From: Azolla caroliniana
Taxonomy: Eukaryota; Plantae; Polypodiophyta
Assembly (NCBI GenBank): GCA_043228905.1
Contig: JBHGNT010000006.1
Coordinates: 16,616,001 to 16,680,000 of the forward strand
DNA length: 64,000 nucleotides
Reading direction: 5' to 3'
Shown here in pieces: positions 1 to 52,673 of this stretch; the first letter of the stretch is position 1; every line of letters begins with the position of its first letter. The notes under the pieces are model-generated. The model was not told where the DNA came from. It was given only the letters and a program-made list of their open reading frames with translations, and made no database searches. The position numbers were made by a program, and so were the translations under genes.

Positions 1-893
1 CGGATCGTGACCTTGTTCACCGGTTGCAAGTCTTGGATGAATCGGAGTGACCCATTCTTCTTCGGAACCGTAAACCATCGATTTGAGTACGGAGCACTTG
101 ATGGCTCTAGAATCCCCATCGCCACCTTCTCCTTGAGCAAGTCGATGACTTTCGGAATATGCGCCCGTGGCACCGGAATCGGCTTCAGGTTCCACGGTAC
201 ATGATCAATCGTGAAAATCACCATCGGCTCCACTATCTTTGGATCAATGCATCCGATCTCCCTCGATGTGAACGCGAATGCTTTGCCATGTTGCTCCAAC
301 ATCTCTCGAAACCGTTTTTCTTCTTCTTGTAAGAGGAACCCACCTCCACCGATCCGAAGTTTCTTCCGGGTCTCATCTGTGAAGGCATGTCCGATATCCA
401 CGGACTTCCGAAGTGTCGGATCTCCCGAGACTTCTTTTTTCTTTTGTTCGCTATCGGCGGGTAGTGGTCCCGCGGCCGGTTTCACCTTCTTCTCCACGGT
501 CTTGTATTTCGTACTTACCATTGCTTCTTCTTTGCGGAGCGCATCCGGCCCCATTTTCGCAACGATCTCGTACATCTCGACCGATTCCACCGGGACTACC
601 CGGTTCCCTTGGCTTTTATCTTCCGCAAGCTCTTCAAGCCGTTGTAGTGTATTCCCATAGAACACTTCCTCGATCACTCCCACGATTTCTTCGTCTTCTT
701 TTATTATTGATGCCGACCGTAACTTATCCTCCACTTGTCGGTATTGTTTCTTCATTCCTCCGGTTACGGCCGTGTACGTAGATGCCCCATCCGGGCCGAT
801 TCGTACTTGTTTTGCTCCGAGAGTTTTCTTCCTGTGTGGGGTATCAGGGCTTCTCGGACTATCACTTCCCCACTCCGCAACAGTCCGCTTTAA
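1..893 (-). CDS. pol: Pol (linker + RT N-terminus), partial, -1 frame relative to gag-PR
   Basis: Hand translation is open from the slippery site to the window edge: LKRTVAEWGSDSP...KYKTVEKKVKPAAGPLP...VPWNLKPIPVPRAHIPK...RWFTVPKKNG; homologous to the Pol at 45427-48912. Confidence 0.85.
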
Positions 894-2929
894 AAATCCA
901 TTCTCACTTGGGACAAGAGTTCCCTCTTGTTCCTTTCGTGATTTGCCGGCACCGTTAGGAATTGGACGGATTTCCCTCCGTTTTGGCTCCGAATTCGCGC
1001 AAAAGCCGCACCACTATCGAGCACCTTCGTCTCCATCCGTGAAGCCGTGATAAAGGGTTGGCCGAGGATGACAGAATGTGAAACCTCATCCTGCACAAAG
1101 AAATTTTGGTCAATTTCGACATCCCCGATCTTTACCGTCACATCCGGACAAGCCGCAAACAGGTCTTCTGTCGTTTTCGTGGCTGCCCGAATCTTCCATC
1201 CATGGTTGGTGTTTATAGGCCACTTCCCCTTTCGGTAGAACTCCTTGGACATCAAGTTGATCTCCTATCCGTGATCAATCAATGCTAGCACGGGTTCTTT
1301 GATGTTGCCGATTCGGACCGGAGTCTCCGTAGTCGCACGTGCCCAGTGTGGCCTTGTATAGTGGGAGTTCGGAATTTCGCCTTCCACTTCGGTGTCGTTC
1401 ATTGAAACGGTATTTGCATTCACCCTTGGAGCATTTTCCTCCGTACTTTGTCTCTTCCTTTTCACGAGATCCACGAGAAGATCGTGAAACTCCTTCTTCG
1501 CTATTCCGAGTAGTTCCCGCAGCGAAAAATCTACCCGGCTATCCAAGATTCTTTCCTCGAACACTCTTTTCAAGTCGGTTTGTTGTTCTATGTCCGAGGC
1601 GAGCTTGAATGCCGGAGTCGCCTTTTCTTTTCCCTTACCTCCGGAGTTCCAGCTTTCCGGTATCTTCGATGGTCCGGCCGCATCCTCCGTGCGCCGTCGT
1701 TTCTCGTCCACATACACCTCATGTAATTGACACAGGGCGTATATGCTATTCTTGTCGACAGGGCACTCCCATCCCGTAGCTTCCCGGACGCCTTCCGCGG
1801 TGTTTCGGATATCGTTGGAGTCGGTTTTCTCGGTGTTTCCTAGCACCTCCGGCCAGAAAGACGCCTTCGCTCCCGATGACTCCCCGACACATATTCCCGC
1901 GGTTGTCGCATAGTTGCTTCTTGCCGCTAACTCCTCCTCGAGCACCTTCTTCATGCCGCCTTTCCGGAAGTTCGGTCGGAGTGGCTTCCGAGAGTCCATC
2001 GAATGAATCCGGTTTCCCTCGTAGTAGATGAGATCCCGTCGTAGCGCCTCCTTATGGTCGTCGCAATCCCTCCGATCGTGTTCGGCGCTATCGCACCATA
2101 TGCACCGTCGATCCGTATATTTGGAGCTTGTGGGGCGGTCATCCGACTTCTTCACCATCGCGATCTTTAGATTCTCCATCTCCTTCAGCAACTGCTCCAC
2201 CGTAGACGCGTCGACTCCCTTCTCGGCCGTAATCTCCCGAGCCCTCGGTTGATGGTCTTCCAGTCCCGTTCTCGGTTTCGGAATCGGTTCCGAAACCCTC
2301 TTTTCTTCGTTGGCAAGCCATTGCCCCCTCTTCGTGTACCGCGCGACGATATCCCGCACGCTTTCCCATGTTTCGGTGAGGCCGCTTTCGGTGGTCGTGT
2401 CCTCAAGAAGCACTCCGAGATCTTTCCGGTCCCGGACGTCCACAGCTCGCAAAAACATGATGACTTTGTCCGGTGCAAGAATAGTTTGATCTCTCGCGGA
2501 CAACCTCCCGAACCGACTTTCGAATGTCGAAAACACTTCGAGGACCTTCAGCCCCTTACCTGACGTTTCCACCCAATCCTCGAATCCCCTCCGCGTTGCC
2601 TTGGAGGAGTCCTCGATGGCAAACGTGGTCTTTAACGCCTCTTCGAATGCTTCCCACGTCGGATTTTGTTGTTGCAACCCGTGGATACTCCCTTGAAGCC
2701 CGTCGGTCGCCACCCGGTTAAAGGATGTCACTCGCAGTCCTTCCGAAGCCCGGCACCGGAGCATCTCCGCCTTGTAGTCCTGCAAATATCGCGACACATC
2801 CTTACCATTAAATTGCCCGTTGCGTTGCACGAGCCGCTCTACTGATGCCGAAATCTCCGACATCGTGCGTTGTTCTTGAAGCATCCGTTCGAACATCGCC
2901 ATCATATTGTTAGCTTGTTGAGCCTCCAT
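890..2929 (-). pseudogene. gag: Gag-protease ORF1 with one internal stop (1265-1267)
   Basis: ORFs 1265..3016 and 890..1255 are in the same frame; TAG replaces S in DHG(S)EINLM; likely ATG at 2929 (MEAQQ), downstream of the PBS. Confidence 0.85.
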
Positions 2930-2945
2930 CTCCTTGCCACCCGTC

Positions 2946-2963
2946 TTCACGTCGGGTTCACCA
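2946..2963 (-). promoter_or_regulatory. Primer-binding site complementary to the tRNA-Trp 3' end
   Basis: Sense TGGTGAACCCGACGTGAA is the reverse complement of ...TTCACGTCGGGTTCACCA (plant tRNA-Trp, recalled). Same PBS at 4907-4924 and 43265-43282, and partial at 50086-50100. Confidence 0.88.
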
Positions 2964-2967
2964 ACTG

Positions 2968-3763
2968 TGTCGTGCCTTTCGGCTCCGGATCGTTGCGTGA
3001 GTCGGGTGGGAACCACAGAGGTCTTGGACTAGGAGAAAGAAGTTCGTGAGATAGAGATTAATTATGAGTAAATAGCAAAGAGAAAGATAAGAAACTCGTG
3101 AATCACACGAGTATACTATATTAATTGGTACTTAGGGTGTTAAGAGAGAAGTAGATGTATAAATCGTGAATCCCACGAATAATTTTTGTATTCATTAATA
3201 CTTAATCCAAATAATCAACAACCCTTTTACATATTTCTCTCCTCCTTATATAAGGAAGGAAGAGCTAAGCATGGCTTCATGCTTTTTTTTTTATTACAAA
3301 AGTGTTCATGTCCACTAAATGTGCATGTGATGCTTTTTTATTTCCCAAGTATAGGGCTCATGCACGCTAGATGTGCATGAGTTATTTTTAGTGTCTCGTG
3401 TTTTTCATATATTAAAAAAAATACACGATTTACCTTTTAATAAAGGTATGCATAAATAAAGGTCTATATTTAAAACACTTAAGAAAAGTTAATGTAATGG
3501 TAAGGTTGGGGTTTGTCAACGTGGAGGTGCAGAGTTCGAATCACGCCCTGCGCAGTAGTGAGTATTTCCTTTCTTTTTACATTTATGTCTCTTTATCCGT
3601 TTTCCTCCTTGCCGGTATGCCGTTTTCTTCTTCTTCCTTGCCGGTATGCCGTTTTCTTCCTTGCCGGTATGCCGTTTTCTTCCGGTTCTTACCGAGCACT
3701 CCATTCTCTATCCGGAGAGACAAAAATATAATTTCCACATAGTGTGCAACCTACACTACGACA
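2968..3763 (-). repeat. 5' LTR of copy 1, with a 23-bp tandem repeat (3597-3690) and a tRNA-like segment
   Basis: TG..CA ends; 4 nt from the PBS; TATA near 3250; repeat unit CCGTTTTCTTCCTTGCCGGTATG. Confidence 0.8.
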
Positions 3764-5448
3764 ACGCTTGCCACCGTCTCTTCCATGCCGTTGTCTCGAT
3801 TGCCCGCCTTGCTGCCGCCACCGTCCGTCACTCTAGGTCTCACACCGGCACTCGGGCCGACCGCCGGAGCCTCTAGGGCCGGTTTGCGTAAGGCCGCGGC
3901 ACCGCCGCTCGTTGTCTCCGTAGCCGCCTCCATCCAAACTTCGTTATCCGCGGCTACCCCACCTCCAATCGCGCAAGCCTCAATTACGCTTGCCACCGTC
4001 TCTTCCATGCCGTCGTCTTGGTTGCCCACCTTGCCGCCGCCACCGTCCGTCACTCTAGGTCTCACACCGGCTCTCGGGCCGGATGCCGGAGTCTCTAGGA
4101 CCGGTGTGTGTAAGGTCGCGGCACCGCCGCTTGTCTCCTTCCCACTCGATGTTTCGGGCCGCCATGTCCCGAATCCGTAGTTACCGGCCTCCATGGTCGT
4201 CCCTTCACCGCAAGGCAAGAGGGTCGCTTGCTCCGCACCCTCTCCCATGTTGCCGTCATACGTCTACGTCTAGGGAGGCTTCTTCGTCCGCATCCTCCGA
4301 TCGCCTCTTGCCCGACTCCATAACAAGCCCTTCTTCGGCTCCGATTTTCGCCTTCACAAGCTCGCATGTCTCTCGTATTAGCACCTCTAGGTCGAGCTCC
4401 TCCGAACCGTTTTGCGTTGAGCTCTCTTCCGGCGGTAGTGCATACTCACTCGCCGTTCTCTCTTCTCCGCTGCTCGAGGGCCGTGTTGTGACCGACCGCC
4501 TCGCATCATGTTGCCGGCACACCCACCGATCGAACTCATGTCGACCTCTTCCTTCCGGTTCCGTGTACCCTTACGCCTCCAATAGGGCTCCCTCAAAGGA
4601 CACCCACGACTCATGAGCTTCTCGTAGCTCCTTCACCTCCTTGTGCACCGATACGGCCGCCACTCGAGGAAAATACTCTAGCCGCATCGCCTCGTCTACG
4701 CCCCCTTTTGCCATCTCGGCCTTGTAGGCTCCCAAAATTTTTAGGACCTCATTCCCATTGAACCAGCCGACTCGATCGACCACCCTTTCGACGGCTTGTT
4801 GAGCCGCATCTCGCTTCGCCATCTTCCGTCCGGCTTCCATCGCGATCTTTTCCATCATCTCCTCGAAGTCGAAGTCTTCTTCCATCTCCATGCTCCCTTG
4901 CCGCCCTTCACGTCGGGTTCACCAAAGATGTCGCGTTGTTACGCACATGCGTGTAGAATGGGCGGGACCACGGGGTCTTGGACTAGGGAGTGGAGGAGAA
5001 AGAATAAGACACAAAATGGAAGCTTAGCTCAAGAGGAGGTGAGAAAGAATAAGACAATAACGTAGAATAGACGGGCAAGATGCTCAACAAGTTAGCTTAA
5101 GGGAAAACAAACACTTTACAATGGTGGCCGCCATGGCCGCACCAAACGACTATATAAAAAGAAACCCTAAAGGAAAACCCAAGAAGAAAACCCCAATCAA
5201 AACCCTAAAACCGAATAGGAAACCCTCGACCTAAGTGGTATGCCTCTCTCCCTCAAAATAGGCAACCCCTCATAAGTGACCCCTCCCTTCCTTTTATAGC
5301 CCAAGGAGGGAGGGACCTTACAATGTGGGATAGAATTTCCCCTCTTATTTCTATGCACCATTTCCTAGTATACATGTGCACATGGTGCACACCACCGATT
5401 TGCCTATTCCACCCCGGTTTCCGCCTATGTACGAAAATCTTCACGACA
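3764..5448 (-). mobile_element. Probably non-autonomous (gag-only) member of the Trp-primed Ty3 lineage, interrupted at 3764 by copy 1
   Basis: LTR 4929-5448; Trp PBS 4907-4924; gag N-terminus 4571..4891 (VDRVGWFNGNEV...YKAEM); then a ~220-bp tandem duplication (3764-4140); no pol visible. Confidence 0.78.
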
Positions 5449-18916: not shown

Positions 18917-26057
<7,141 letters not shown>

Positions 26058-33225: not shown

Positions 33226-35845
33226 GTCCCGTTATGTAGACAGGGACCTTCTTGCCGTAGACCGCCTTCCGGAGAGCTGGTGCCACAGTAAGCGCCTCTT
33301 TTAATCTCCGGATCGATTCCATATGTTCATCACTCCATTCGAATTTTTTCCCTTTTTTAAGCAATCCGTAGAGCGGTTCCGCGACGTGTGCATAGTGCGG
33401 CATTCAAAGGTGATAGAACGTGCATGCCCCCAGGAACCTCCGCACCTCCGTAACCGACTTGCATTTTTCCTTCATCGTGGAGATGGCCTCTACCTTTGCC
33501 CGAGACGGTTTCTGGCCGTAAGGCCCGCACAGGTGACCGACCACAAGGATCTCTTGCTGCCCGAAAGCCGACTTCTCTCCGAAGAGGGTGAGCCACGCAC
33601 CCCCTAGCCTTTGCAGTACCTTCTCGCAGACGTCAATGTGGTGCGCCACGAATGTTCGGCATCCGTCCGGCCCAACCGTCTCATCCTTATCCTCCACCGG
33701 GCACCCCTTTATCGGTATATCATCCTGAATGCCATTGAGTTTGTCCCTCCCTACGGCAGGGTACACATGCGCACTAATCTGAGAGGTGTCCGCATCGTCG
33801 TGACATCCGTGCTATCCTCGGCTAGTTGGAATTGGTCGTACCCTGAGTATAGATCCCCGACCGAATAGATCGACCTCCCGGCGAAGGCCTCTACAAACCC
33901 GTCAATCGTCGGTCCGACTCCTGCGTTCCGACTGGTCACTTTATTGACCGGTTGCAGGTCCTGAATGAAACGCAACGTGCCATTCTTCTTAGGCACAGTA
34001 AACCACCAATTCGAGTATGGGGCACTCGACAGTTCGAGGATGACCATCTCCACCTTCTACTTTAGCATCTCCATCAGCTTCGGGATGTGAGCTCTGGGTA
34101 TTAGAATAGGTTTGAGATTCCATCAGCTCAACGACCGTCGGGTCCACGCACCCAATCTCTCCTTGTGAGAATGTGAAGGCCTTCCCGTGCCTCCCAAGTA
34201 TTCTCCGAAACCGTTCCTCCTCCGCCGGCAGTAGAAAGCCATCCCCACCAACGTTGAGCTCCCATAGCGTTGTGTTGGTGAACTAGTGTCCTATACCGGA
34301 CGAATACCGTAGACTTGGGTCTGACGCGACCCCTTTCATCCATAACCCGCAGCCCTCCAGCAAGGGTGCAACGACTGGCCTCACCTTCCGGTCCACAGTC
34401 TTGTACCTCGTATGCACGCAGGCCGTCCGATCCGACTTGAGCCTTTCCCCAAAGTTAGTAATGATTCCGTACATCTCCACCGAGTTAACCGGAATCATTC
34501 GGTCTTCACTGAGGCCTTCATCGATCACCTTCCCAATTTCCCCGAGGGTCTCATCGAAAGAGACTGCCTCCACTGCGCCGCTAATTTCCTCATCGGGGGT
34601 GAGGACTCCACGTATCTTGAGTCGTTCCTCCGCTCACTTCTTCTCCTAGCCAATGATGTCGGCTATCATACAACCTCCGCTATTGGAGAACCAAAACTTC
34701 CGACCTATGGTACATGTGTGGGGATCCTCCGAGGTGTCCGGACTATCGCGGCCCCATGCCTTGATAGCCCTCTCTAAAAATCCCCGCTGCTTTCGCCGCT
34801 GAGGGTCTCGCGATTGCGCTCATGGTTCGGTCGCACGATCAAGAATTGGACGGAGTGTCGTCCATCTTGGCTCTTCACGCGTGCGTACGCCGAACCGTTA
34901 TCCAGCACTTTCGTCTCCATACGTGCTGCCGTAATGTACGGTTCTCCGAGTATCACCGGATCCGAGGATGTCTCCTGCACGAAGAAGTGTTGGTCGATCT
35001 CGACATCACCGATTTTCACCCGCACATTTGGGCAAGCCCCATGTAGCTCTTCCGTGGCGCATGTCGTTGCTCATATTTTCCACCCGTTCTTGGTGTTAAT
35101 CGGCCACTTGCCTTTCTTGTAGAAGTCCATAGACATCAAGTTGATTTCCGAACCGTGGTCTACTAATGCTACCACCGGCTCCTGGACGTCCCCGATCCTA
35201 ACTAGGGTCTCCGTAGTGGCTCTTGCCTAGTGCAGCTTTGAATAGTGGCCTTCCGCTAACTCGTCTTCTAGCGCCATGTCTTCTAGGTGCGTCGTTTGCA
35301 CCTCCACCGGCCTCTCTGGCTCCGGCTCTGTCAAAAGTCTCTTCCACTTCACCAAGTCCACGATGGAGTCATGGAATTCTTTCTTGGAGATCCCGAGCAC
35401 TTCCCTCAGCAACAACTCTACCTTGCTGTCGAGGATTCGTTCCTCAAGGACCTTCCGTAGGTTCGTCGTTCTTTCTATCTCGGTGCTCAACCGGTAGCCG
35501 ACTTTCTTTGCTTTATCCGGTGTGCCGGCAGCACCGGCGTCATTCCGCTTCAGCCCGAATCGGGTCTTGTACCGTTGCAAAGATCCGGAACCTCCTGCCT
35601 TCCCCACACGCTTGTCTTCTACCAGGACCTCGTAGTTCTGGCACGCGGCTTCCACAAAACCGGTCTTTTCTTCGACCGGATCGTTCCACCCGGTGACCTC
35701 CTGGACCCGCCTTTCCGCACGGTCCACTTCTTCCCTTCTCAACCGTACACCGATGAGGCCTTCTAGTACCACCGGCTAGAACCCGGAGTCTTTCGTCTTC
35801 CGGCCTTCATCACTCCCGACCCGAATTCCTGCGGATACTGAGTAT
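33226..35845 (-). mobile_element. Internal fragment of the Trp-primed Ty3 lineage (gag end, PR, frameshift site, RT)
   Basis: Homologous to 44360-47085; LVDHGSEIN; GGATTTTTAG at 34783-34774; no LTRs, so the ends look like deletion junctions. Confidence 0.88.
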
Positions 35846-36903: not shown

Positions 36904-39900
36904 TGTGAATGTAAACGTGCGGAAGCATTAGATAGAACTAGCTCAACCTGATAGCAACAGAGAATAAGATGAAGGTTTAATGGAGAAGCTTAGTATACAA
37001 AGAGTATATGTGGGAGAGACAGAGAGAGCAAAACGTAAGCGTATATTCAAAAAAATGAAAATACTTTGTAACTCTGTACATACAACGTGCTAAACAACAC
37101 TATTTATACAAGTCCGTAAAGGACTAACAAAAGTACTGACAGGTACTTTAATATTCCTACGTGCGATTGACACTAACTAAGAGACAATGATTACCTAGTA
37201 GTCTAGGCCACTACTAGGCTTCTGGTTCCTGCTCGAATCCGACTATCTGATCCGTCTCCCCGATCCGGCTGGTTGTTTCCGGATACCGATCCGGCTCATC
37301 CTTCCGGATGCCAATCCAGATCCGGTTGAGCTTGCTCTCTCAACACTCCCCCTCAAGCTCAACTTGAGGTCGGATCATGGTGTTAGTGTTGGCGGCAGCC
37401 GGTTCTTCTACGCGGCTCCTTTTGGCGTTGCTCCGCCTTGCTTGCGCTCCTCATCCGGTCCGGTCCTGTTTGCCACGACCCTTCTGGTTCTGTACACCTC
37501 GACCTCCTCGATCGTCTTGTTTTCTCAACAAGCCCATTTCAGCTTCCTCACTACTGTGACTCCAGCGCTTGTCGACCCATCGGTTCCTTCATGTTGGCGT
37601 CGACTTCCGCTACGTCTGTGTCCGTTTGGCCTTTAGTTGATCCGCCTTTTCTGAATCTTGAATTGAATCGGTTTCCTTCGATTTGTTCCAACTCTTGTCC
37701 AAATCGGTTGCTCTGGATTCGTTCCAGCTCTTGTCTGAGTCGATGTTCTCCAACTCGTCTTCCAATTTCAGGCCCTTCATCATATCAAACCATGTCCGGG
37801 TCTTGGCCTTCCGAGTCAGTGTTCTCCAACTCGTCTTCTAGTTTCAGGCCCTTCATCATATCAGACCATGTCCAGGTCTTGGCCTTCTCCTTCCAGTCGG
37901 CTCTATCATTCTTGAATCTGCCGCCGCTGTCGCTCGTTCCGACTTGTTCGGATGTGCTGACTTCCTTCGTTGACTCGGCTTCCTTTTTCCCTTTTTGTCT
38001 CCCCCTTTGTTGGTTCTTTCTTCCTCTCTGGCTCCTTGTCCAGTGCCATCCGTTCCCTTTCCTTTTCTCCCCCTCAAGTGCGGCACATCGAGATGCTGAA
38101 TACCGAGCATCTCCGAAAAATGTTGCAACTTGTCCGATCTAAGCGGCTTGGTGAAGATGTCGGCAACTTGCCGATCCGTGTGAACATACCGAAGTTCAAC
38201 TTCACCGCTCAGGACCCGCTCGTGAACAATGTGATAATGCACTTCTATGTGCTTTGTTTGAGCATGGAATATAGGGTTCCTGGCGAGCTGAATGCTGCTC
38301 ATGTTGTCAAAGTAGATCAGGATCGGGGTTGGTACATCGATTCGGAGGTCACACAGTAGTCGTCGAAGCCAGATGGCTTCATTGGTGGCATTGGTAGCAC
38401 CCTGGTACTCAGCCTCAGTGCTCGATAGAGCCACTATTGGCTGCTTTTTGCTGCTCCACGCAACAACCACGCTACCTAGAGAAAACATGTAACCGGAGGT
38501 GGATCGGTGATCCGATGCATCACTAGCCCAGTCGGCATCGGTATATCTGACTAGCTTCCCAGCTATACCATGTCGGTATAACAGTCCCCGATCCTTTGTG
38601 AGACTAACATACCAGAGTATCTAGTGGGCGCACTGAAGGTGCTCAACAGTTGGCTTCTGCATGAACTAGCTGATCACTTCGACCGGGTAATTGAGGTCGG
38701 GTCAAGTGATTGTCAGGTATATGAGGCTTCCGACAATTTGTCGGAATTGTTTCTCATTGCAGGCCGGTCCGGATTTGGGACGGAGCTTCTGGTTCCGGTC
38801 CAGGGGCGTGGACACAGGTCGGCATTCCGTCATGCCGAACTTGTACAACATATTCAACACATAGTGTCGTTGTGAGAGCAATATGCCGTCGGGGGTTCGG
38901 ATCACCTCGATCCCAAGAAAATAATGAAGGTCTCCCAGGTCCTTCATTTCAAATGCATCCGATAGCTGGAACTTTACGCGGCTGATTTCATTGAGTCCGG
39001 GTCCGGTGATGACTAAATCATCAACATAAAGTAGGATGCAAACCGGACTGTCTGAACCTTGCCGGATGAACAACAATGAGTCGGATTTAGATGTCACAAA
39101 CCCCATCTTACGCAACTGGTGTGTAATCTTCGCACTCCAAGCTCGGGGGGCTTGTTTCAGACTGTAAAGTGACTTCTTAAGCCGACACACCACCGACTTG
39201 TTCATCTCCGACTGAAAACCAGAAGGTTGGATCATATAGACCCGTTCTTCAAGGTCACCTTGAAGAAACGCATTCTTCACATCCATTTGGTGAAGATGTC
39301 ACCCCCTTGCAACAACAACTGCCAGTACCACATGAACCGTCGTCATCTTCGCTACCGGTGCGAAGGTCTCGTCGTAGTCGATTCCCTGGGTCTGTGCATA
39401 TCCCTTCGCCACTAATTGGGCCTTGTACTGGTTAACCGAACCGTCAGCATTGTACTTTATCTTGTACACCCATTTGCAACCGATTGGTTTACAGTGTCGG
39501 GGAGGGTCAACTAGGTCCCATGTGTCGTTGGCATCGAGTGCCCGCATTTCTTCTTCCATAGCGGCATGCCAATTTGCGTCCTTTGTCGCTTCTGCATAGC
39601 TCTCCGGCTCACGCACTTCCGCCACTTTGGTCATGTACGCATAGTGATGCGCCATGTACTCATTGTAGCCATACCGCGTAACGGGGTTCTTCTTGCGGGA
39701 AGACCGGCGTAACTTGTCATCACCCGATTTGGGGCCCTTCTTGGCCGGTTCGGACTTCAGTCCTGAAGATCTGCCTTAATCCTTTCCGAAGTTGGAGTCG
39801 CTCCGATCCGACTCAACGTTGCCAAAATTCGTATTCCAACATCTTCTTCTTCCCCTTCTCTTTGCGTGTGAACTGTCTCCTCGGTTTCTTGCGTGGGGAG

Positions 39901-42900
39901 AGCACGACAAAGTCTCCACTACTCGCCGGTTCTTCATCCGACTAGTCATCTAGACTCAGCCGTCTCCACTACTCACCGGTTCTTCATCTGACTGGTCATC
40001 TCGACTCAGCCACTCATTCGGTCCACTGAGCCGGAATGAGATCGGACTCTCTTCTAGAGTGTCGAAGTCTTCATCTTCTATCTGGACCTCCTCGGACTCA
40101 CTAACCTCATCTTCCGGAATCGGGTCTTCGTCGGGAGTTGGAGTCGTTAAGGAGTACCATGATGCCATCTCATCAAACTCAACATCTCGGCTTACTCAGA
40201 CCTGCTTAGTCCGGGGTATAGCACTTATACCCCTTCTACTCATGCGAATAGCCAACTAGGATGCATTTCTCTGAATTCGGATCTAGCTTCCTCCTCTTCT
40301 CATCCAGTACATGCACATATGCTATGCTACCGAATATCTGAAGGTGTCTCAAATTCAGCTTCTGCCCGAAATACAACTAATGTGATGACACCTTGTCTCC
40401 GATCCGGTTTTGGATGTAGACGGCCATCTGGACTGCCTCAGCCCAATAGAATTGGGGCATGCTCTTCTCCTCCAGCATTGCCCTTGCCGTGTCGACAATC
40501 GACCGGTTCTTCCTTTCGGCCACACCGTTTTGCTCCGGCGTGTATTTGCAGCTGAATTCTCTCCGAATTCCGTTCTGCTGCAGATAACTATTGAATTGGC
40601 CAGAAAAATATTCTTTTCTGCGTTCCGACCGCAAGCACTTGACCTTCTCTCTGTTTCCCGTTCAACTAAGCTTTGCAAGTTCCGGAAACATTCAAATACT
40701 TCGCTCTTTCGTTCAATGAGGTAGATCCACATGTGCCAGCTATAGTCGTCGATGAAGGAGACGAAGTATCGACTCCCGCCATGACTAACGTTCTATGCCG
40801 GTCCCCATACGTCCGAATGTATTAGATCGAGCTTGTTACGGCTCCGGTTTTGTTCAGTGGGGAATGGAAGCCAATGTTGCTTCCCGAGTTGGCAGGCTTC
40901 ACAAATTTCGTCCTTCCGGCTGCTAAGTTTCGGCAAACCGAAGACAACTTGTTTCGATTGTAGGTCCTGAAGCCTCCGGTAGTTCACGTGGCCGATCCGC
41001 TTGTGCCATAGGTCAATGTCCGACTCGACCTTCTGCCCTTTGGCAAACATGGTGGTGCCAACGTCATTAGTGTTGAGGATGAACATCCTTCCTTCTCTGT
41101 GCCCTTGCACAATTATCTAGCCTTCTTCCTCGATGAAGCACCTGACATGAATAAACTGCACCTGCATCCCCTGGTCGACGATTTGTCCGATCGACACCAG
41201 GTTCTTTGTGATTGTCAAAACGTGTAATACGTTCATCAACTTCCCCTTTTGTCTGACATGGCTTAAAGGGACTTCTCCGACATGCACAATCGGTTGAGGG
41301 GTGTCGTCTCTGGTTTCGACAATCCCCAGTTGCTCCGGTTTCTCCAAAAAAGAGAACTAGTCTTCATGGCTCGTCATGTGGTTGGACGCTCCGTAATCAA
41401 TGTACCATACTTCCTCCAATTCGGAAGTAGTCTTCTTCATCGAGTTAGCCTTGTGCTTCATCACGAAGGTTGGCCCTTTACCGGTTTTCCCAGTTCCGGA
41501 TCCTTCTGATACTTCCACGTAGTGCGAGCTTTGTTGGTTCTCCCGACCGGTTTTGCCGGATCCGAATTTGTCCGAATCGGCGTGCTTCTTCCAACACTCG
41601 CTTTCCTTGTGGTCCTTTTTGCCACAGTACCGGCATTCCATGTGGGCCTTTCCTTGCCGGTTCCCGGCGCCGCTTTGACTCCCCCTATTTGTGGAGGGTT
41701 CGGAACTGCTGTTGACACCACCTCTGTGCCTCCGGTCCTGCCCTTGCCGGCCACCTCCATTGCGTGCCGACCCACCTCGTCCACCACGTCCATGGGGGCG
41801 ATCTTTCTCCGTGTACAACATCTGACCGTCCAATTGAGTGGTCCTTGACCCACTCGCGTGCTTTTCTTCGACCATCAACATCGATTGCAAGTCGAAGAAA
41901 GACAATGGTTTCTCTCGGGTGAAAATCGTTGTCCGGATTGGCCCGTACCTTTGTGCTAGACCACCGAGGCAGATTTGTACCATCTCGTCTTCATCCACCG
42001 TCACGTTGATGGACCCGAGTGTGTCGCAAATATCCTTTATCTTGGTGGTGTAATCCGTAACCGACATGTCTCTTTGCCAGATGTTGTTCAGCTCTTGCCA
42101 GAGCTGCAACTTACGGGTTGTGGTACTCATGGCGAAAATCTTCCTTAGATTTCCCCAGGTCGCCTTCGGCGTCTCTACATCCTTGATGTAGCCGAGCATC
42201 TGATCGTACACACAGGACGCGAGGCAATACAATACTCAGCTTGCTCCTTGCTCCCATACCGGGAAGTCATTGTGTGTCGGCTCCGACGCTACCTCGTTTG
42301 TTCCTTCCTCAAAGCTCCAATATACATGCCCCAGAAGGTACTGGTGCATCTTGTATGACCAAAACGCGTAGTTGCTCCGGTCGAGCTTCTTTGTTGGAAG
42401 TGAACTCGCCATTCCTTTGTCCATATCTTCTCTCTGTTTGTTGTTACTGGGTTCTAGGGTTCGTCTATGGAACCATGTGAATGTAAACGTGCAAAAGCAT
42501 TATATAGAACCGGCTCATCCTGATAGCAATAGAGAATAAGATGAAGGTTTGATGGAGAAGCTTAGTACACAAAGAGTATACGTTGTCGTGAAGAAAACCG
42601 TCCCCAGGCACAAACCATGTATAGTGTGTGTGAACTGGCCCTTACACGTGGGCACGCCCCTCGTTGTGCAGTAGATAGGCAGGCACAAAGGTCACATCCT
42701 AGGTAGCAATATCCTATAGGGAGAATCAAGGAGTATCTCTGTCCGAAAGGACAGAGAATTAATGTGATGTAAACGGGTAAGACGGCCTCCCTCCTTGAGC
42801 TATAAAAGAGAGGGAGACGGGGAGAGAAAGACATCGCGCGCTAGAGGGGACGAAGTGCTGTTGGACTGGGACCGAGCTCGTCTCCTCACCATAGCTTTCT

Positions 42901-43304
42901 TTGCGCAGGTTCTCGAGAGGCTGATTCTGCTCCGTGGAACGCCCGTGTGCTTCCGGCAGAATCTCCATCTTGCTCTCCTGTGAGCGTGGGTGATCAGGCA
43001 TCGGCATCCGTCTTGCCGACCTGGTCGGCTATATCTGTTCGAGTCATCTGCATACATATATTTATATACGCGTTCTTATACTCTATCTCCTGCCCAACTC
43101 GTGTCTCTTGTGTTGATTGGGCTGCGTTCCCGCGCGCTTCTTTGTCTATCCGTGTGTGAGCGTGTCTCTCTCTCTCTCTCTCTCTTTTCCCCACCTATTC
43201 CTCGGTCCAAGACCCCAGTGGTCCCGCCTTGTTCTCCACGCACGCGCGTAACAACGCGACATCTTTGGTGAACCCGACGTGAACAGGCGGCAGAGGAGTA
43301 GAAG

Positions 43305-45430
43305 ATGAGGGGGTCGGACCTTGCAGAAGCCATGGCTTCGGCTATAGACCGTATAGTGAGTGCGCGCGAAGGCACCGGTGCCCTTGATAGGGCTATCGAG
43401 GCGGTTGTCGGTACGATCGGCCGGTTTAGTGGAAAGGATGCCACGAGCTACTTGGCGTCCTACGGGCTGAGATGGTAATGAGGGACATCCCGGAAGAGAG
43501 GCGTCTAGCCGGATTCCCTTGAGTGGCGATGCCGGGTATCCATACGGAGGTGCTCGAGGTACGGGCCGAGAGCCGGACCTGGGAGGAGTTCGAAGGTCAG
43601 CTCCTCGAAAGATACGGGCTTGAAGATGCGCTTCGACTTTCGAAGCGGGACTTCATGGAGTGGGTGGAGACCCCCAACAAAGGAAGGAACACATCAGTGC
43701 TCCTTCGGGAGTTTGAGGAACGCTTCGCGCGCCTCTCGGTGCTTGACCAGACCGTTCTGGACACAAGCCGTATCCTATTGTTTGTTAAGTCGGTTGACGA
43801 GCGGGATCGGGAGCAGGGAGGCCTCCTACTGGAGACTGATGACGGGCTGACGGCCGACTGGGCCGTGGTGAAAAGGGTCTGTGGCCGTTTCGACAAACGG
43901 TGGGAATGGGTTGACAAAGGGTCGACAGGGGCAGGCTCTGTCGCAGCAAAGAAGCTCGAGCCAACACCACCAACGCGAAGGGAAGAGACCTGAGATTGGC
44001 TCGAGACCGGGTCGGCTTCAACCGGCGTGGTCAAGGGCTCGTCCGGGGGAGCAGCTCTGGAGGAGCTGACGCGAATGGTAAGGGATCTCCAGATCGCCCA
44101 AGCACGGAGGGATGGTGGCGACCAAGCCCGTGACCGACGACCTCTGGCTGAAAACAGGTGCATGTGGTGTGATGCAGTTGGGCACATCCGAAAGGACTGC
44201 GGGAACTTCGTCGAGGCGATGAGAAGCAACGTGGTGTACCTGTGGAACGGTCGGGTGCACGCCAGCGAGACCTAGAGGGCCCTGAACCTGAACGTCGGGC
44301 GAGGGGGTATGAAAAGGCTGATGCAGGAGGCGGCGGCTCGTCACGCGGAGATCGTTCACTACTCGGCGTCAGTTGGTATTCGGGTCGGAGGTGGCGAGGC
44401 CCCGAAGACGAACAAAGACGGGTTCTGGCTGACGATGCTGGAAGGCCTCGCTGGCGCACGGCTGAGGAAAGAAGAGGTGGACCGCGCGGAAAAACGGATC
44501 CGGGAGGTAACCGGGTGGAGTGACCCGGTGGAAGAAAAGACGGGCTTCGTCGAAGCCGCTTGTCAAAACTACGAGGCTCTGGTGGAGGACAAGCGGGTAG
44601 GGAAAACCGGAGGGGCCGGGCCCTCGCAGCGATATGAAACTCGATTCGGGCAAAGGCGGAATGAGGCTGGTGTAACCGGCGCCCAGGATAATCCCAAGAG
44701 GGGCGGGTACCGGCTAGGCACAGAAATCGAAAGATCCACGGACCTGCGAAAGGTCCTGGAAGAACGAATCCTCGACAGCAAGGTGGAACTGTCGCTGAGG
44801 GAAGTGCTCGGGATCGCCAAGAAGGAGTTCCACGACTCCATCGTAGACTTGGTGAAGAGGAAGAGGCTGTCGACGGAGACAGAACCGGAGAAGCCAGTGG
44901 AGGTGCGGACGACGCACATAGAGAACATGGCGCTGGAAGACGAGTTGGTGGAGAGCCACTATTCGAGGCCGCACTGGGCCAGGGCGACCATGGAGACCCC
45001 TGTGAAGATCGGAGATGTTCATGAACCGGTGGTGGCGTTGGTGGACCACGGTTCAGAAATCAATTTGATGTCCATGGACTTCTATAAGAAGGGGAAATGG
45101 CCGATCAACACCAAGCACGGGTGGAAGATACGGGCAGCGATGCGTGCCATCGAAGAACTGCATGGAGCCTGCCCGAATATACGAGTAAAGATCGGCGATG
45201 TCGAGATTTACCAACACTTCTTCGTATAGGAGACGTCCTCACATCCGGTTATACTAGGAGAACCATACATCACGGCAGCACGGATGGAGACCAAGGTGCT
45301 GGACAACGGCTCGGCCTATGCAAGGGTCAAGACCCAGGATGGGCATCACTCGGTCCAGTTCCTGACGGTGAGACCAAACCATGAGCGGAACCGCGAGACC
45401 CTCGGGGGCGAAAGTCAAGAGGATTTTTAG
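43305..45430 (+). pseudogene. gag: Gag-protease ORF1 (one frameshift and several stops)
   Basis: ORFs 43523, 44027 and 44309 are in one frame; CMWCDAVGHIRKDC; LVDHGSEIN; ends ...EDF-TAG. Confidence 0.88.
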
Positions 45431-48400
45431 AGAGGGCTATCAAGGCGTGGGGCCGCGATAGTCCGGACACTCCGGGAAAACCCCACCAGTGTACGATAGC
45501 GAAAAGGACCTGTACTATAAGTAGGAAATTTTGGTTCTCCGACAACGGAGGGTGTACGATAGTTGACATTGTTGGATGGAAGAAAAAAAGGGCGGAGGAG
45601 CGACTTCGGGCATGTGGCGTCCTCGGCCTTGGAGAGGAAATCAACGGAGCCGTGGAGACGGCCTCTCTCGTCGATACCTTGGGGGAGCTGCGAGAGGTAG
45701 TCGGACGAGTCCTTGAAGAGGACCGGATGATTGCGGTATGTTCGGAAAGGATGTACGAAGTCATCGCAAACTTCAGTAGAGGGTTCGAGTCGGATCGGAC
45801 GGCACGGGTGGACACGAGGTACAAGACTGTGGACCGGAAGGTGAGGCCAGTCGCGGCTCCCTTGCCGGAGGGCAGCGAGTTGTGAATAAAGGGGGTTGCG
45901 TCGGACCCGAGTTTACGAAATCCGGCCCGCATAGGACACACGTTCACCGACATAACGCTGCGTGAGCTCAAAATCGGTGGGGGTGGCTTCCTACTGCAGG
46001 CGGAAGAGGACCGTTTTCGGGGAATGCTCGGAAGGCACGGGAAGGCTTTCGCGTTTTCACCAGAGGAGATCGGGTGCGTAGACCCGACAGTCGTGGAACC
46101 GATGGTGATATTCACGGTACCGCATGTGCCGTGGAGTCTCAAACCGATTCTAGTACCCAGAGCTCACATACCGAAGCTGATGGAGCTGTTAAAGCAGAAG
46201 GTCGAGATGGGAATCCTCGAATTGTCGAGTGCCCCATACTCGAATCGGTGGTTTACCGTGCCGAAGAAGGACGGCACGCTGCGCTTTATTCAAGACCTGC
46301 AGTCGGTCAACAAGGTGACCATTCGAAACGCAAGAATCGAACCGACAATAGACGAGTTCGCGAAGGCCTTCGCCGGAAGGTCGATTTACTCGGTCGGTGA
46401 TCTCTACTCGGGGTACGATCAGTTCCAGCTTGCCGCAGAGAGCAGAGACATCACGACATTGCGAACTCCTCTCGGCCTAGTACGGATGTGTACCCTGCCG
46501 CAAGGAGGGACGAACTCGGTGGCTCACATGGTGAACGCAATGAACAAGGTGTTGAGGGATTGTATCCCGGACATCACCATGCCGTTTTTGGATGACGTCC
46601 CGATCAAGGGATGCCCGATGGAGGAAAGGGACGAGACGATCGGACCGGACGGATGCCGGAAATTCGTGGCGATGCACATCGATGACTGCGAGAAGGTGCT
46701 GCAGAGGTTGGAGGGCGCGAGGCTCACCTTCTCCGGGGGAAAATCGGCGTTCGGGCAATTAGAGATCATGGTCGTCGCACACCTATGCGGGCCGTATGGC
46801 CGGAAACCATCTCCGGCTAAAGTGGAAGCCATCTCCGCGATGAAGCACGACTGTAGCTCGATCACGGAGGTTCGGAGGTTCTTGGGAGCGTGCGCGTTCT
46901 ACCACATATGGATCCCGCATTACGCTCACGTCGCGGAGCCGTTATACGGGTTGCTGAAAAAGGGGCGAAAATTCGAGTGGAGAGACGAGCATACAGAGTC
47001 TGTCCGAAAGATGAAGGAAGCACTTGCCGCAGCTCCGACGCTCCGAAAGGCTGTCTACGGAAAGGACACTCCAATTTACGTAACGGTAGACACGAGCCCG
47101 ACCAGGATCAGATGGGTCGTCAACCAAGAGGACGAGGACGTCATGCGTTTCCCGATATGGTTCGGCGCAAAGGTCCTCAGCGAGCGACAGCGAGGATACG
47201 CCCAAGTTAAACGCGAGCTCTGGGGTATCGTTTCGGCGGTAAAGGCCGATAAAGACTACCTGATCCGGGCAGAGGTAATTATCGAGACGGACTGCCTGCC
47301 AACTCTTGGCATGGTTTCCGGATGCACAATGCCGGACCTGGCAATGCTCAGGTGGATAGCGTACATCAAGTCCCTGAATCCGGAAATACGACACATTTCC
47401 GGGAAAGACAACGCCATGGCCGACATGCTTTCAAGGGCGAGGTTCGAAAACGAGGGTGGCATGGTTTCGGAGGATGAGGAAGTCGGCGTGGACTTCTTCG
47501 AGGCGGCCTACGTAACAACCGGCAGGGAATGCACTCCAACGCTTAACGATTTCGACGAGAGCAAGTACAACGGGGAGTGGCTACAGATCGGCGAGTTCCT
47601 GAAAACAATGACACCGGACGCGGCATGGACAAAGGATGAGGCCGACCGGATCCGGAAGAAAGCATACTTATTCTTTCTCCGGGACGGGTACATATGGAAG
47701 CACCCGAAGAAGAGGAACGACATCCCACTCCGAGTGGTGGCGAAGGAGGAACAGGAGCATTTGCTGGCGGTGTACCACGATAGCCTGCGGGCTGGACACC
47801 GTGGAACGTGGGCCACGTTCGAAAAGCTAAAGGGGAAGTACTGGTGGTCGGGACTATACCGGGACGTGCATCGGTTCGTGACGACTTGCGAGAGCTATCA
47901 GGTGCACTCCATGATCCGACATCGGGACGAGCTTCACCTGACCTACCCTCCAACCGTCCACTTCAAGTGGATGGTGGATTTGGTAACGATGCAGATGGGG
48001 GTAGGATAGATGCGGTATCTAGTGCTGGCTCGGGAAGATCTAATGAACCAGGTTGAAGGCCGAGCCCTGCAGAACAAAAAGACGGCAGCCGTGTGGGGGT
48101 TTCTGATTGAGGACGTAGTATGCCGATACGTTTGCGTAGGGAAGATCGTGGCTGACCGTGGTGAGTTGGACGCAGAAGAGGCCGAAGAGTTGTTCGACAG
48201 GCTAGGAGTCAAACTCTCGCTCACCACAGCGTACAATCCGGAGGCGAACGGGAAGGTAGAGCGCGAACACGGGCCGATTGTCAAAGCGCTAGTCAGGGCG
48301 TGCGGAGGCCAGGTCGGGAACTGGCCACGGCTGCTACCTTATGCCTTGTGGGCAGACCGGACTACGCACAGTTCGGTGACAGGGTTCATGCCGGCCGAGC

Positions 48401-48912
48401 TTATGTTCGGACAGAAACCGATCATGCCAACGGAACGGACGATCTCCTCGTGGGCCACGGTGGACTGGAGGGATGAGATGAGCCGGGAGGAACTATTGGC
48501 GGCGCGGATTCGGCAGCTCGAGCAGAGGCCGGAGGACGTAGAGCGAGCCGCGGAGAAACTTCGGGTAGCGAGGATAAGGAACAAAGCCCAGTTCGACCGA
48601 ACACACCGGCTCCGACCAAGGAAGATCGAGGAAGGCGACTGGGTGCTAGTCTACGACAGCAGCCTCGACAATCAACACAAGGCCACGCGGAAGTTCGCGA
48701 GGAGGTGGTTCGGGCCTTACGTAGTAACAGGCGCCAACGACAATGGGATGTACCATCTCGCGGAGCTCGACGGTACGAGAATGGCGATACCGGTAGCGGG
48801 AAAGAAGATCAAAGCGTTCAAGAAACGACACGACGGTGAGCCGGAGCAAGGGGGCACGAACAACAACGACGAGCAACCCGAGGCGGAGGACAAACCGGTA
48901 AACAAGGAATAA
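45427..48912 (+). pseudogene. pol: Pol RT-RNase H-integrase in the -1 frame, two point stops (45883, 48007), no chromodomain
   Basis: DLYSGYDQ, FLDDVPIKG, VDTSP, ADMLSR, GH/CESY zinc region, VADRGE, NGKVER, WFGPY. Confidence 0.9.
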
Positions 48913-50085
48913 GGGCAATGACCAGTTTTCTCCAGGAGGAACCCAATTTTGGCGCATACCAGTGGATGCGCGGTTAGGTGGGGGCGGATGTCGTGAAGAA
49001 ACCCGTCCCCAAGCGCAAACCATGTATAGCGTGTGTGAACTGGCCCTTACACATGGGCACGCCCCTCGTTGTGCAGTAGATAGGCAGGCACAAAGGTCAA
49101 ATCCTAGGTAGCAATATCCTATAGGGAGAATCGAGGAGTATCTCTGTCCGAAAGGACAGAGAATTAATGTGATGTAAACGGGTAAGACGGCCTCCCTCCT
49201 TGAGCTATAAAAGAGAGGGAGACGGGGAGAGAAAGACATCGCGCGCTAGAGGGGACGAAGTGCTGTCGGACTGGGACCGAGCTCGTCTCCTCTCCATAGC
49301 TTTCTTTGCGCAGGTTCTCGAGAGGCTGATTCTCCTCCGTGGAACGCCTGTGTGCTTCCGGCAGAATCTCCATCTTGCTCTCCTGTGTGCGTGGGTGATC
49401 AGGCATCGGCATCCGTCTCGCCGACCTGGTCGGCTGTATCCGTTCGAGTCATCTGCATACATATATTTATATACGCGTTCTTATACTCTATCTCCTGCCC
49501 AACTCGTGTCTCTTGTGTTGATTGGGCTGCATTCCCGCGCGCTTCTTTGTCTATCCGTGTGTGAGTGTCTCTCTCTCTCTCTCTTTTCCCCACCTATTCC
49601 TCGGTCCAAGACCCCAGTGGTCCCGCCTTGTTCTCCACGCACGCGCGTAACAACGCGACAACGTGTGAGAGACAGAGAGAGCAGAATGTAAGCGTAGATT
49701 CAAAAAAATGAAAATACTCTATAACTCTGTACATACAACGTGCTAAACAACATTATTTATACAAGTCCGTAAAGGATTGATAGAAGTACTGACAGGTACT
49801 TCAATATTCCTACGTGCGACTGGTACTAACTATGAGACAATGATTACCTAGTAGTCTAGGCTACTACTAGGCTTCCGGTTCCCGCTCGAATCCGGTTGTC
49901 CGATCCGTCTCCCCGATCCGGCCAGTTGTTTTTGGATACCAATCCGGATCCGATTGAGCTTGCTCGCTCAACATAACACTTATAACCCTTTTGCTCTTTC
50001 GAGTAGCTGATCAAGATACATGTCTCGGCTTTGGCAAAATCCAACTTCCTCCACTTCTCCTTTGGCACACGCACATATGTGATGC

Positions 50086-52673
50086 TGAACCCGACGTGAA
50101 GGGCAGCAAGGGAGGACGAGGATGGAAGCTTCATTGGAGGCATACGGGTACAAGAAACCGGAGGGGAGAAGTCGGCATGAGTTTGATCGATGGGTGGTGT
50201 TAGTGAAGGCCCATCGAAGCATGATGGAAGCATTCCAAGAGTTCGAGCGTCGTTTTGCTCAACTCTTGGAGCGGGATCGGAGATCGGTGGGGGGCCAATC
50301 GGAGTTGGAAGGGACTACGACGACGAAGGAAGAAGAGGCCGATGCGAAGGTCGGGTCTACGTCAGGTGAACAGCGTGATACGAAGCATGCATTACGGCCG
50401 GCGGAGGGCCAAGAAACGAGCATACATCCGGAGGAGCCACAACGAGTGACCGACAATAGCGGACCGGTTGAGCCTATGAGAGGCAAGTACGAGACGGAGG
50501 ACGAAGCGGTGAGTTGCCGAGATTGACGGATGAACGGCGTGAACGGAAGGTTGTGTCTCAGAAACCGAAGGAGGTGCGTGGAGGACAAAGGGCTACGCAC
50601 TGAGAAGAGAAAACGCGGCATCCCGGAGGACGTGCAAGGCCAAGCGGGCCAAGAGGGCGCGGGTCGAGACAAAGCGGTAACGAGAGCCACAAAGGACACC
50701 AAAGTCGGGTACATCAACACGGATGTCGGGATGGAGGTATGCTCTATCGTGAGAGAGCACCGCAAGCAAGGAAGAAACGAGGGGCGTGTAATGTGGTCAC
50801 ATAAGGACCTAAGAGCAAGTGCATATTCGGAGGATAACAATGACACATGGGTAGAGCCTACGGGAGGCAAGCGCAGAACGGAGAGAGGATGCACGCCGAG
50901 GTGCTTGGGATGAGGAGACGATTGAGCCGAAGGAGGAACACATGCGGTATGCGAGGGGCGGAATCCGGCGTGCAATCGGAGTAACCGGGAGCACATCCAG
51001 AGGACATATGCGGCGGACAAAGGAAGAGTGACCGGATTGGCAACGTTGTTCGGGAGGACCGATCGGGGAAGAAGGTGCGAGCGTTGGATATGGCGGATCA
51101 GATGGAGCCGACGGTTCGAGGACGTGCGACGGACACGATGGTTCGTGTGGAAGGCACCGGCGTGCTTGAAATGGAGAACGAAGTCAAGCAAATCCAATGA
51201 GGACATGGCAGAACCCGGTTGATCACCATTGCCAAAAATCTCACCTCTTCTCCTTTCTTGGCACATACCGGTGGATGTGCAGTTTGGTGGGGGCGGATGT
51301 CGTGAGGATTTTCAGCCATGGTGAGAAAACCCGAGTGGGAGGAATAAAACAAATGTGCAACATTGCACATGAACTTAGGAAAATTGTTACATAGGAATAA
51401 AAGACAAATGTAAGGAGGAAAAGTAAGATGTAAAGGTATAAAGGTGATGTGCACTTTGTAGACTAGAGGGAGGCACATGAAGTATGGGTGTAGGGAGTAG
51501 TGGGCATTGAGTATGTCGGTGAGAGGAGAGGGAGTTAAGACCCATCAATCTCACCTCCTAAAATCGAGGTCAAATATTCTCCTTTGAAAGAAAGGGGATT
51601 TGACCACTCCTTTGTAATGTGCCTCACCCCTTACTACTATAAAAGGGAGTGAGGGGTCTCTTGTGAAGGGGTTACCTATTTTGAGTGAGGAGGCTTCCAC
51701 TTTTTGGGTTTCTTTGGGTTGCCATTTGTTGGTAGACATGTCCCTCCGGATGGGAAGGGGGAAGAACAGTGCCAACGAACAAACTCGGCCGAGGCCGAAA
51801 CGGTATGAAGCCGGATGAGGAGTACCCGACTCCGGAGAGTCGGATGGTGTAGGCCCGACTGCGGAGAGCCGGATGAGGAGTACCCGACTGCGGAGAGCCG
51901 AATGGAGCCCATCAAGGCTACATTTGTAAATAGCCGAAAAGTCATATTAGTAAAATATGACTTAGGGCAAACCTTTTAGATATACGTGTGTGTTGTTGTC
52001 ATTCTTGTTGTTATTATTCCTTCTTGTTGGTGCAAGTAGAAATCAGAGCGCGTAACTGTACAGAGAGAGAGAGAGAGAGAGAGACGAGGTCGTTGCCTGC
52101 CTCTGTTGTAACCGCCGCCTGTGGCGAAGATCTGAGAGCACGAGGTCGTTGCCTCAGTGATCTCACTGTTGTATACTTCTGCATAGTGACAGTTTGCAGC
52201 TTGTGGGCTGCCGTGGTTTTTCCCCTATTTTTGGGGTTTTCCACGTATACCTCCTGTGCACCATTTCTCCTCTTTTGTGTTGCGTTTTAATTACCTGTTT
52301 TGCTGTGTATGTAAAGAATCTCGGTTGTGGCCGAGCGACGGACATAAGGAACGTCGAGTTCCCAACACCATTAGGGTTTCAGAATTCTGGGTTTTAGGAT
52401 CTTGTTTTAGGGGTTTCATTCTTCTTCTTCTTTTCCCCTATCTAGTTAGAATTTCATCTAGAGGATTTACATTCGACCTACACCGCCACGGTTGTAATTG
52501 GTGTGGTGCTTTCCATAATGTATCTTGTCTTGTTTAGATCTTATTCTCTTGAATCTTAATCTTTCTCTTCCTTCTCGGTTGAACTCCCAAGCTTCTCTCC
52601 CTCCTCTTACTCCCTAGTCCAAGACCCCTGTGGTCCCGTCCTATCCGACACGCATGCACGGATTTCCGCGACA
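50086..52673 (+). mobile_element. Non-autonomous Trp-lineage element (5' LTR deleted): PBS remnant, gag fragment, PPT, 3' LTR 51298-52673
   Basis: TGAACCCGACGTGAA; gag-like EAYGYKKPEGRSRHEFDRWV...FQEFERRF; same PPT and U5 motif as 42584-49660; only ~1.2 kb internal and no pol. Confidence 0.82.
51727..52367 (+). mobile_element. Solo LTR (related to the copia LTR at 55365) with TSD CCATT
   Basis: TGTTGG...CCAACA; CCATT at 51722-51726 and 52368-52372; shares AATATGACTTAGGGCAA with 55491-55507. Confidence 0.85.

What the first reader, a model, noticed from the sequence alone, without database searches (positions are those of the whole stretch)
42580..49664. Ty3 lineage appears to integrate at CpG: 4-bp, CG-centred target sites
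Seen: the complete element has a two-sided 4-bp TSD, ACGT. The other three readable outer LTR flanks of this lineage are ACGC (3764-3767), ACGG (5449-5452) and CCGG (52674-52677), so 4/4 are NCGN. All four sit inside other TEs. The other TSDs in the window are 5 bp without CG (CACAC, TAACA, CCATT, ATAAA). Established: most plant LTR elements make 5-bp TSDs with weak sequence preference. Inference: an integrase with no chromodomain that reads CpG, possibly methylated CpG, would be steered into silenced repeats and away from genes. With uniform bases, four sites sharing any one central dinucleotide has chance about (1/16)^3; three of the flanks are one-sided.
Basis: partly seen in the sequence, partly recalled or inferred. 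Interest (0 to 1): 0.8.

Follow-up and report, generated by a model that had tools for sequence, protein, structure and literature searches.

The report
Fern retrotransposons that insert at CG
These jumping genes, from what is likely a fern, almost always sit in the middle of a CG pair and copy four bases around it, a habit already published for the moss Phygy group they resemble; the enzyme itself likely reads the CG, and a role for DNA methylation is untested.

Summary
The element (42584-49660) has a 4-bp ACGT duplication, confirmed against an empty paralogous site, and the three one-sided flanks are as described. In metagenome contigs, 73 of 82 distinct flanks of related LTRs have a central CG (background 3.7%); 6 more look like decayed CG. 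Neumann et al. 2019 list Phygy (moss non-chromovirus Ty3, 186 elements) as 4-bp NCGN with a tRNA-Trp primer. This element matches those traits, but I could not test membership on a tree. Three things are added here: the host groups with ferns; the motif sharpens to VCGB, a strict case of the VYRB rule of 4-bp retroviral integrases; and the lineage has an invariant Glu at the foamy-virus Ala188 position. Best reading: the integrase reads CG at the kinked central step, with methylation tolerated but not required. The methyl-CpG idea is untested and has points against it: no reader domain, TG/CA unused, one insertion in a host exon, CG gene-body methylation in a tree fern. The scan noted NCGN sites once before, in a likely fungal genome.

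The parts
42580..42583 (+). left target-site duplication ACGT
   Evidence: sequence; empty paralog has one 4-mer
42584..43261 (+). 5' LTR, 678 bp, TGTCG...CGACA
   Evidence: 11 transitions and 6 transversions against the 3' LTR in 672 aligned positions
43266..43283 (+). primer binding site TGGTGAACCCGACGTGA; tRNA-Trp 3' end (assignment recalled, no tRNA library tested)
43307..45229 (+). gag-protease region with DUF4100, broken by stops
   Evidence: Pfam PF13352 E 7.9e-7 on 44276-45226; stop map
45886..48912 (+). RT, RNase H and integrase (H2C2, DDE core, SH3-type C-terminal domain, short acidic tail); one in-frame stop at 48007-48009; no chromodomain, no extra RNase H
48980..48988 (+). polypurine tract GGGGGCGGA
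48989..49660 (+). 3' LTR
49661..49664 (+). right target-site duplication ACGT
36968..37060 (+). paralogous empty site of the host repeat (copia-associated), single ATGT
1..3763 (-). related element cut by the window edge; 5' LTR about 2968-3763, outer flank GCGT (3764-3767), nested in the gag region of the next element
3764..5448 (-). related element: 5' LTR 4929-5448, Trp PBS, start of gag; outer flank CCGT (5449-5452)
51258..52673 (+). PPT plus 3' LTR (51298-52673) of a related element, holding nested pieces; right flank CCGG (52674-52677) in a Ty3 RT coding sequence
33230..35844 (-). internal fragment of the same lineage (77% DNA identity), no LTR ends found
19984..26054 (+). host AAA-ATPase gene used to place the host among ferns

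Best explanation
These are Phygy-like Ty3 retrotransposons without a chromodomain, in a likely fern, whose copies sit at V-CG-B sites with a 4-bp duplication, and the integrase itself likely selects the CG. Shown: 4-bp duplication, CG centre, near absence of T at the first and A at the last position, no chromodomain or other appended domain in the predicted model. Inferred: as in foamy-virus intasomes the target is kinked at the central pyrimidine-purine step and outer T/A is excluded, and lineage-specific contacts narrow YR to CG. Candidate contacts are the invariant Glu at the PFV Ala188 position and the conserved Gln-His and Lys in the C-terminal domain loop. Methylated CG is likely tolerated but not required. 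Nesting in other repeats likely reflects where CG sites are abundant and where insertions survive selection.
For: Right flanks: 73 of 82 CG, 4 TG, 2 CA, 2 TA, 1 AG, although TG, CA and TA are each more common than CG in the flanks (6.9, 6.8, 5.9 against 3.8%). Left flanks: 15 of 18 have CG at -3,-2, the register of a 4-bp stagger. Among 73 CG sites, T first in 2 and A last in 0, against 35% each in background CG contexts (p 1e-11 and 2e-14), as in the PFV consensus VYRB and in all 4-bp retroviruses (PMC4422553). Decay-type changes are 6 of 79 at the target and 5 of 68 at a CpG inside the LTR end, so the exceptions fit later mutation. Raw reads of run X21 lack this insertion's left flank yet give a mixed flank whose majority starts ACGT (818 reads); the top loose-end rows lie at the LTR end (PBS) and after the CG, with none listed at 49661-49662. 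The model shows standard integrase domains only and is closest to PFV and Ty3. Glu at D+3 is in 68 of 68 relatives and aligns with PFV Ala188. Intrinsic CG reading has precedent: ZAM integrase binds CGCGCg in vitro (PMC2527525 abstract), and Ginger1 uses CCGG or CCGT/ACGG (PMC2836005).
Against: No biochemistry and no methylome. PFV Ala188 contacts bases outside the centre, so the Glu need not read the CG; invariance may only reflect shared ancestry. Only 1 of 8 LTRs with two readable flanks had an exact 4-bp duplication (4 of 8 within one mismatch; 0 of 8 for 3, 5 or 6 bp); I attribute this to collapsed short-read assembly or recombination, which I did not show. 34 of 82 flanks resemble TEs or window DNA and only 1 carries a clear host-gene domain; all 15 CpG-poor flanks are still CG-centred. 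Both results also fit a methyl-CG preference. The 82 flanks come from sister families (68-82% LTR identity in the 25 with long alignments) and few assemblies (11 among the 79 loci listed), and the pattern favours well-preserved LTR ends.
Confidence: 0.65

Rival explanations
1. The integrase prefers methylated CpG, through the shape or methyl groups of the central step, and so targets silenced DNA without a chromodomain.
For: Cytosine methylation created strong target preferences for retroviral integration in vitro (review passage in PMC11054761; the primary paper was not held). All four window sites and at least 34 of 82 other flanks are repeat-like; 15 of 15 CpG-depleted flanks (1% CG) are still hit at CG. 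The empty paralog has decayed to ATGT.
Against: No appended reader domain. TG/CA steps, which also present a 5-methyl group, are not used beyond the decay rate (inference). L036 sits in an exon of an NdhN-like host gene. A tree fern has 88.87% mCG and CG gene-body methylation, so reading mCG would not by itself avoid genes (PMC9122828; another fern than this host). ZAM targets CG in Drosophila, which lacks CpG methylation (that last point recalled).
Confidence: 0.2
2. CG choice is intrinsic, but a host chromatin factor also tethers the complex to heterochromatin.
For: Frequent nesting in this window; Phygy into Tcn1 is the commonest repeated nesting in moss (PMC6911290).
Against: The C-terminal tail is short, variable (0-155 residues, mostly 20-50) and low in confidence. 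The window is mostly TE, so nesting is expected by chance.
Confidence: 0.12
3. The pattern is an artefact of LTR boundary calls, of the search pattern, or of selection after insertion.
For: Three of the four window flanks are one-sided; 7 of 8 two-flank LTRs lack an exact duplication.
Against: Boundaries are fixed by LTR-LTR identity, PBS, PPT and an empty paralog. The search pattern contains no flank base. Selection has no evident way to fix one dinucleotide in register on both sides.
Confidence: 0.03

Closest known systems
Phygy, non-chromovirus Ty3/gypsy clade of Physcomitrium patens (Neumann et al. 2019, PMC6317226; passages, section 9 and Additional file 5 read)
   Same: 4-bp TSD with NCGN preference (100% 4 bp, n=186), tRNA-Trp PBS (81%), no chromodomain or aRH, polyprotein filling the internal part
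   Different: Host groups with ferns, not moss; 7,077 bp is below the listed 7,656-9,968; motif resolved here as VCGB; tree placement against Phygy references untested
Prototype foamy virus and other 4-bp TSD retroviral integrases (PMC4422553; passages and section 6 read)
   Same: 4-bp stagger, central YR step, T first and A last disfavoured (VYRB); closest solved folds
   Different: Their preference is weak (YR up about 63%); here about 9 in 10 sites are CG
Drosophila ZAM subgroup errantiviruses (PMC2527525 abstract; PMC5408687 passages)
   Same: Ty3-group integrase with CG-containing palindromic target (CGCG)
   Different: Insect lineage with AGT-type ends and alternating CG target; relationship not tested
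Ginger1 DNA transposons (PMC2836005; passages read)
   Same: Gypsy-like integrase, 4-bp TSD CCGG (75%) or CCGT/ACGG (24%)
   Different: DNA transposon with terminal inverted repeats, no RT; ACGT is the commonest site here
TatI and Selgy clades (PMC6317226, Additional file 5)
   Same: 4-bp TSD non-chromoviruses of seed-free plants; TatI also uses tRNA-Trp
   Different: TatI has aRH (absent here); Selgy uses tRNA-Ala; no NCGN listed for either

Membership tests
Phygy | Ty3/gypsy domain order PROT-RT-RH-INT | tested here: met
   RT, RH, integrase in order by Pfam; the protease is read from the sequence upstream of RT and had no Pfam hit
Phygy | no chromodomain and no extra domain | tested here: met
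   no Chromo or RVT_3/RNase_H hit in the element or five full-length relatives at E 0.05; model ends in SH3-type domain plus short tail
Phygy | 4-bp TSD with NCGN | tested here: met
   caveat: 1 of 8 two-flank LTRs exact
Phygy | tRNA-Trp PBS | tested here: met
   TGGTGAACCCGACGTGA behind 3 window LTRs and 34 metagenome LTR ends; Trp assignment is recalled
Phygy | falls in the Phygy clade on RT/RH/INT trees (the primary criterion) | not testable with these tools
   reference FASTA too large to read; no P. patens protein among listed hits; tree has no labelled Phygy
Phygy | length 7.7-10 kb and P. patens host (descriptive, not diagnostic per the paper) | tested here: not met
   7,077 bp; host gene groups with ferns. 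Hence filed as Phygy-like, not as a Phygy member
TatI | archaeal-type RNase H domain | tested here: not met
Selgy | tRNA-Ala PBS, 4.4-6.7 kb | tested here: not met
Chromovirus | chromodomain at integrase C-terminus | tested here: not met
   absent here, while the same scan found it in the element at 9710-16731

The most novel reading that the evidence does not exclude
A chromodomain-free Ty3 integrase lineage shared by mosses, liverworts and ferns senses methylated CpG directly through its catalytic core, a DNA-level route to heterochromatin targeting kept for hundreds of millions of years.
Probability: 0.2. Interest if true: 0.7.

Novelty: new member of a known kind. Interest (0 to 1): 0.3.

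Why it matters
The CG target rule is known from one line and one table row in a 2019 survey, and my searches found no mechanistic follow-up (mostly listings seen). Finding it in a fern lineage suggests an old, conserved, near-strict dinucleotide specificity, rare among plant LTR elements, and gives candidate residues. Inserting at CG would also place new copies where methylation can silence them. If methyl-CpG were preferred, it would be a targeting mode not described for LTR retrotransposons in the papers I saw.

Tried and rejected
No whole genome was held, so no genome-wide logo for this host. Solo LTRs in short-read contigs failed as a TSD-length test (1 of 8 exact); length rests on the empty paralog and the left/right register. 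A moss host, my first guess, was rejected by the host-gene tree. Phygy reference sequences could not be read. The Atlas search with a liverwort homologue gave only generic Ty3 clusters. A T-loop-like stretch in the LTR at about 3520-3570 gave no tRNA or Rfam hit, and the Helenus paper did not bear on it. The RLG2 paper passages gave no target-site data. Base preferences beyond the TSD were weak: G at +5 (p 6e-4), little else after allowing for 16 tests. In one search, 1 end was too short and 5 duplicate flanks were dropped from 87. In one search, 10 of 121 sequences were dropped for short overlap. In one search only 66 of 82 flanks had an ORF long enough to scan. Runs with small word shares were not used.

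Full report
1. Observation. The element spans 42584-49660 with LTRs of 678 and 672 bp (96.6% identical, TGTCG...CGACA), a PBS at 43266-43283 and a PPT at 48980-48988. ACGT stands on both sides. The host is a repeat with a second copy in the window: 36902-37011 matches the left flank and 37010-37297 the right, and that copy has a single ATGT at the junction. The duplication is therefore 4 bp, and the sister copy carries TG where this one has CG. The other three flanks are as reported. The element at 3763 is nested in the gag region of the element at 5448, and a tandem copy of that stretch reads through the same four bases uninterrupted. The CCGG site is inside a Ty3 RT sequence. The host of the 5449 site resembles copia-associated DNA at 36971-37888, but I did not annotate it further. 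The element has in-frame stops in gag and pol and is defective.

2. Independent test. No genome was held. In 121 loci there were 122 ends: 34 followed by the PBS, 87 by a flank, 1 too short. After dropping 5 duplicates, 73 of 82 flanks have CG at positions 2-3, against 579 CG in 15,615 background steps (p about 7e-94). The rest are 4 TG, 2 CA, 2 TA and 1 AG. TG/CA changes are 6 of 79 here and 5 of 68 at a CpG in the LTR end not fixed by the pattern, so the original rule may have been nearly strict (inference). Left flanks have CG at -3,-2 in 15 of 18, which is the 4-bp register. Against this, only 1 of 8 LTRs with both flanks had an exact 4-bp duplication, 4 of 8 within one mismatch, and none fitted 3, 5 or 6 bp; collapsed assembly is my untested explanation. 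These are sister families (68-82% LTR identity in the 25 of 82 with long alignments) from few assemblies.

Reads agree. Run X21 has no depth on this insertion's left flank, yet 818 reads leave the LTR end into mixed DNA (agreement 0.36) whose majority begins ACGT; X4 gives the same from 34 contigs. On the 3' end, loose ends are listed at 49660 (805, PBS majority), 49663 (421), 49664 (531) and 49665 (249), none at 49661-49662 among the rows shown (63 rows hidden). Depth falls from about 2,530 to 1,590 across the first three flank bases, roughly nine in ten of non-PBS reads; this is rough because the clipping rule is unknown.

3. The motif is VCGB. Among the 73 CG sites the first base is A 47, G 13, C 11, T 2 and the last is T 33, C 20, G 20, A 0, while T before and A after CG are each 35% of background contexts. 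Serrao et al. (PMC4422553; passages and section 6) give VYRB for foamy virus, a kinked and unstacked central YR step, and T first and A last disfavoured in all 4-bp viruses examined. The outer rule here is thus generic. The special part is the narrowing of YR to CG, since TA, TG and CA are all more available.

4. What the element is. Pfam finds DUF4100, RT, RNase H and the integrase zinc finger, and no chromodomain or second RNase H in the element or five full-length relatives. Named relatives are from Riccia, Adiantum and Ceratopteris (about 50-68% identity); closer hits, up to about 90%, are unnamed. The host AAA-ATPase gene groups with ferns, split from bryophytes, Selaginella and seed plants with FastTree support 1.0 (26 references, 775 columns, one gene). 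The integrase, read with X at its stop, folds (mean pLDDT 83) into the usual domains and a disordered tail of about 30 residues, closest to foamy virus and Ty3. Three residues after the second catalytic Asp, 68 of 68 relatives have Glu, which HMMER aligns with PFV Ala188; the C-terminal domain loop has Gln in 61, His in 61 and Lys in 66 of 68. These are leads only: Ala188 contacts bases outside the centre in PFV.

5. What is known. Neumann et al. [quoted passage not shown] Additional file 5 lists Phygy as 186 elements, 4 bp (100%) NCGN, tRNA-Trp 81%, no extra domain, 7,656-9,968 bp; section 9 calls it a P. patens-specific clade. Jedlicka et al. (PMC6911290, passages) note GC-rich centres in 4-bp TSDs and frequent Phygy nesting in Tcn1. 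CG-type targets are also known for ZAM (PMC2527525 abstract; PMC5408687 passages) and Ginger1 (PMC2836005 passages). The element works like Phygy on every trait I could test except size and host. The primary criterion, the tree, was not testable: Additional files 1 and 3 were too large to read, and file 1 may already show the V/B refinement. Searches for NCGN with retrotransposon (3 papers), Phygy (18 papers), moss CG targets and fern elements showed no methylation test or fern report; I saw listings only for most.

6. Methylation. For: a review passage says C methylation created strong target preferences in vitro (PMC11054761; primary paper not held); 34 of 82 flanks resemble TEs or window DNA and one has a clear host-gene domain; 15 of 15 CpG-poor flanks are CG-centred. 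Against: no reader domain; TG/CA not used; L036 lies in an NdhN-like exon; a tree fern has 88.87% mCG with gene-body methylation (PMC9122828 passages), so mCG would not mark repeats alone; and nesting is expected from TE density and selection. These data suggest tolerance of methylated DNA and cannot show preference.

7. Verdict. Real feature, known kind, new host lineage and a sharper motif. Intrinsic CG readout 0.65, methyl-CpG preference 0.2, added chromatin tethering 0.12, artefact 0.03. Interest 0.3; 0.7 if methyl-CpG sensing were shown.

Noticed in passing
runs X1 and X5, joint 43261 to 42584: Contigs read LTR end, CCGC, LTR start: likely a second element inserted into the 4-bp target site of a first one.
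   Followed up: no
window 9710-16731: Chromovirus with identical 455-bp LTRs ending TG...TA rather than CA, a Met-type PBS (label recalled) and two long open overlapping ORFs, inside a (CA)n run; a very recent insertion.
   Followed up: partly
window about 3520-3570; table 5c: A T-loop-like stretch inside the LTR of the 1-3763 element; reads show a similar stretch directly after an LTR end, starting ACGT, so it may be a repeated target. No ARAGORN or Rfam hit.
   Followed up: partly
L036:164-530: LTR end abuts an exon of an NdhN-like host gene (Pfam E 1.5e-24), with no start codon between; an insertion into a gene or gene copy.
   Followed up: partly
L002, L041, L051, L067: PPT-LTR-PBS structures: tandem elements sharing an LTR, or collapsed assemblies; L041 has a unit of about 2.35 kb, possibly a short non-autonomous form.
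   Followed up: no
window 53368-55312: Three tandem copies of about 600-625 bp covering the RNase H region of a Ty3 element.
   Followed up: no
window 19984-26054: Host AAA-ATPase gene on a long branch among fern homologues (55-65% identity to named proteins).
   Followed up: partly
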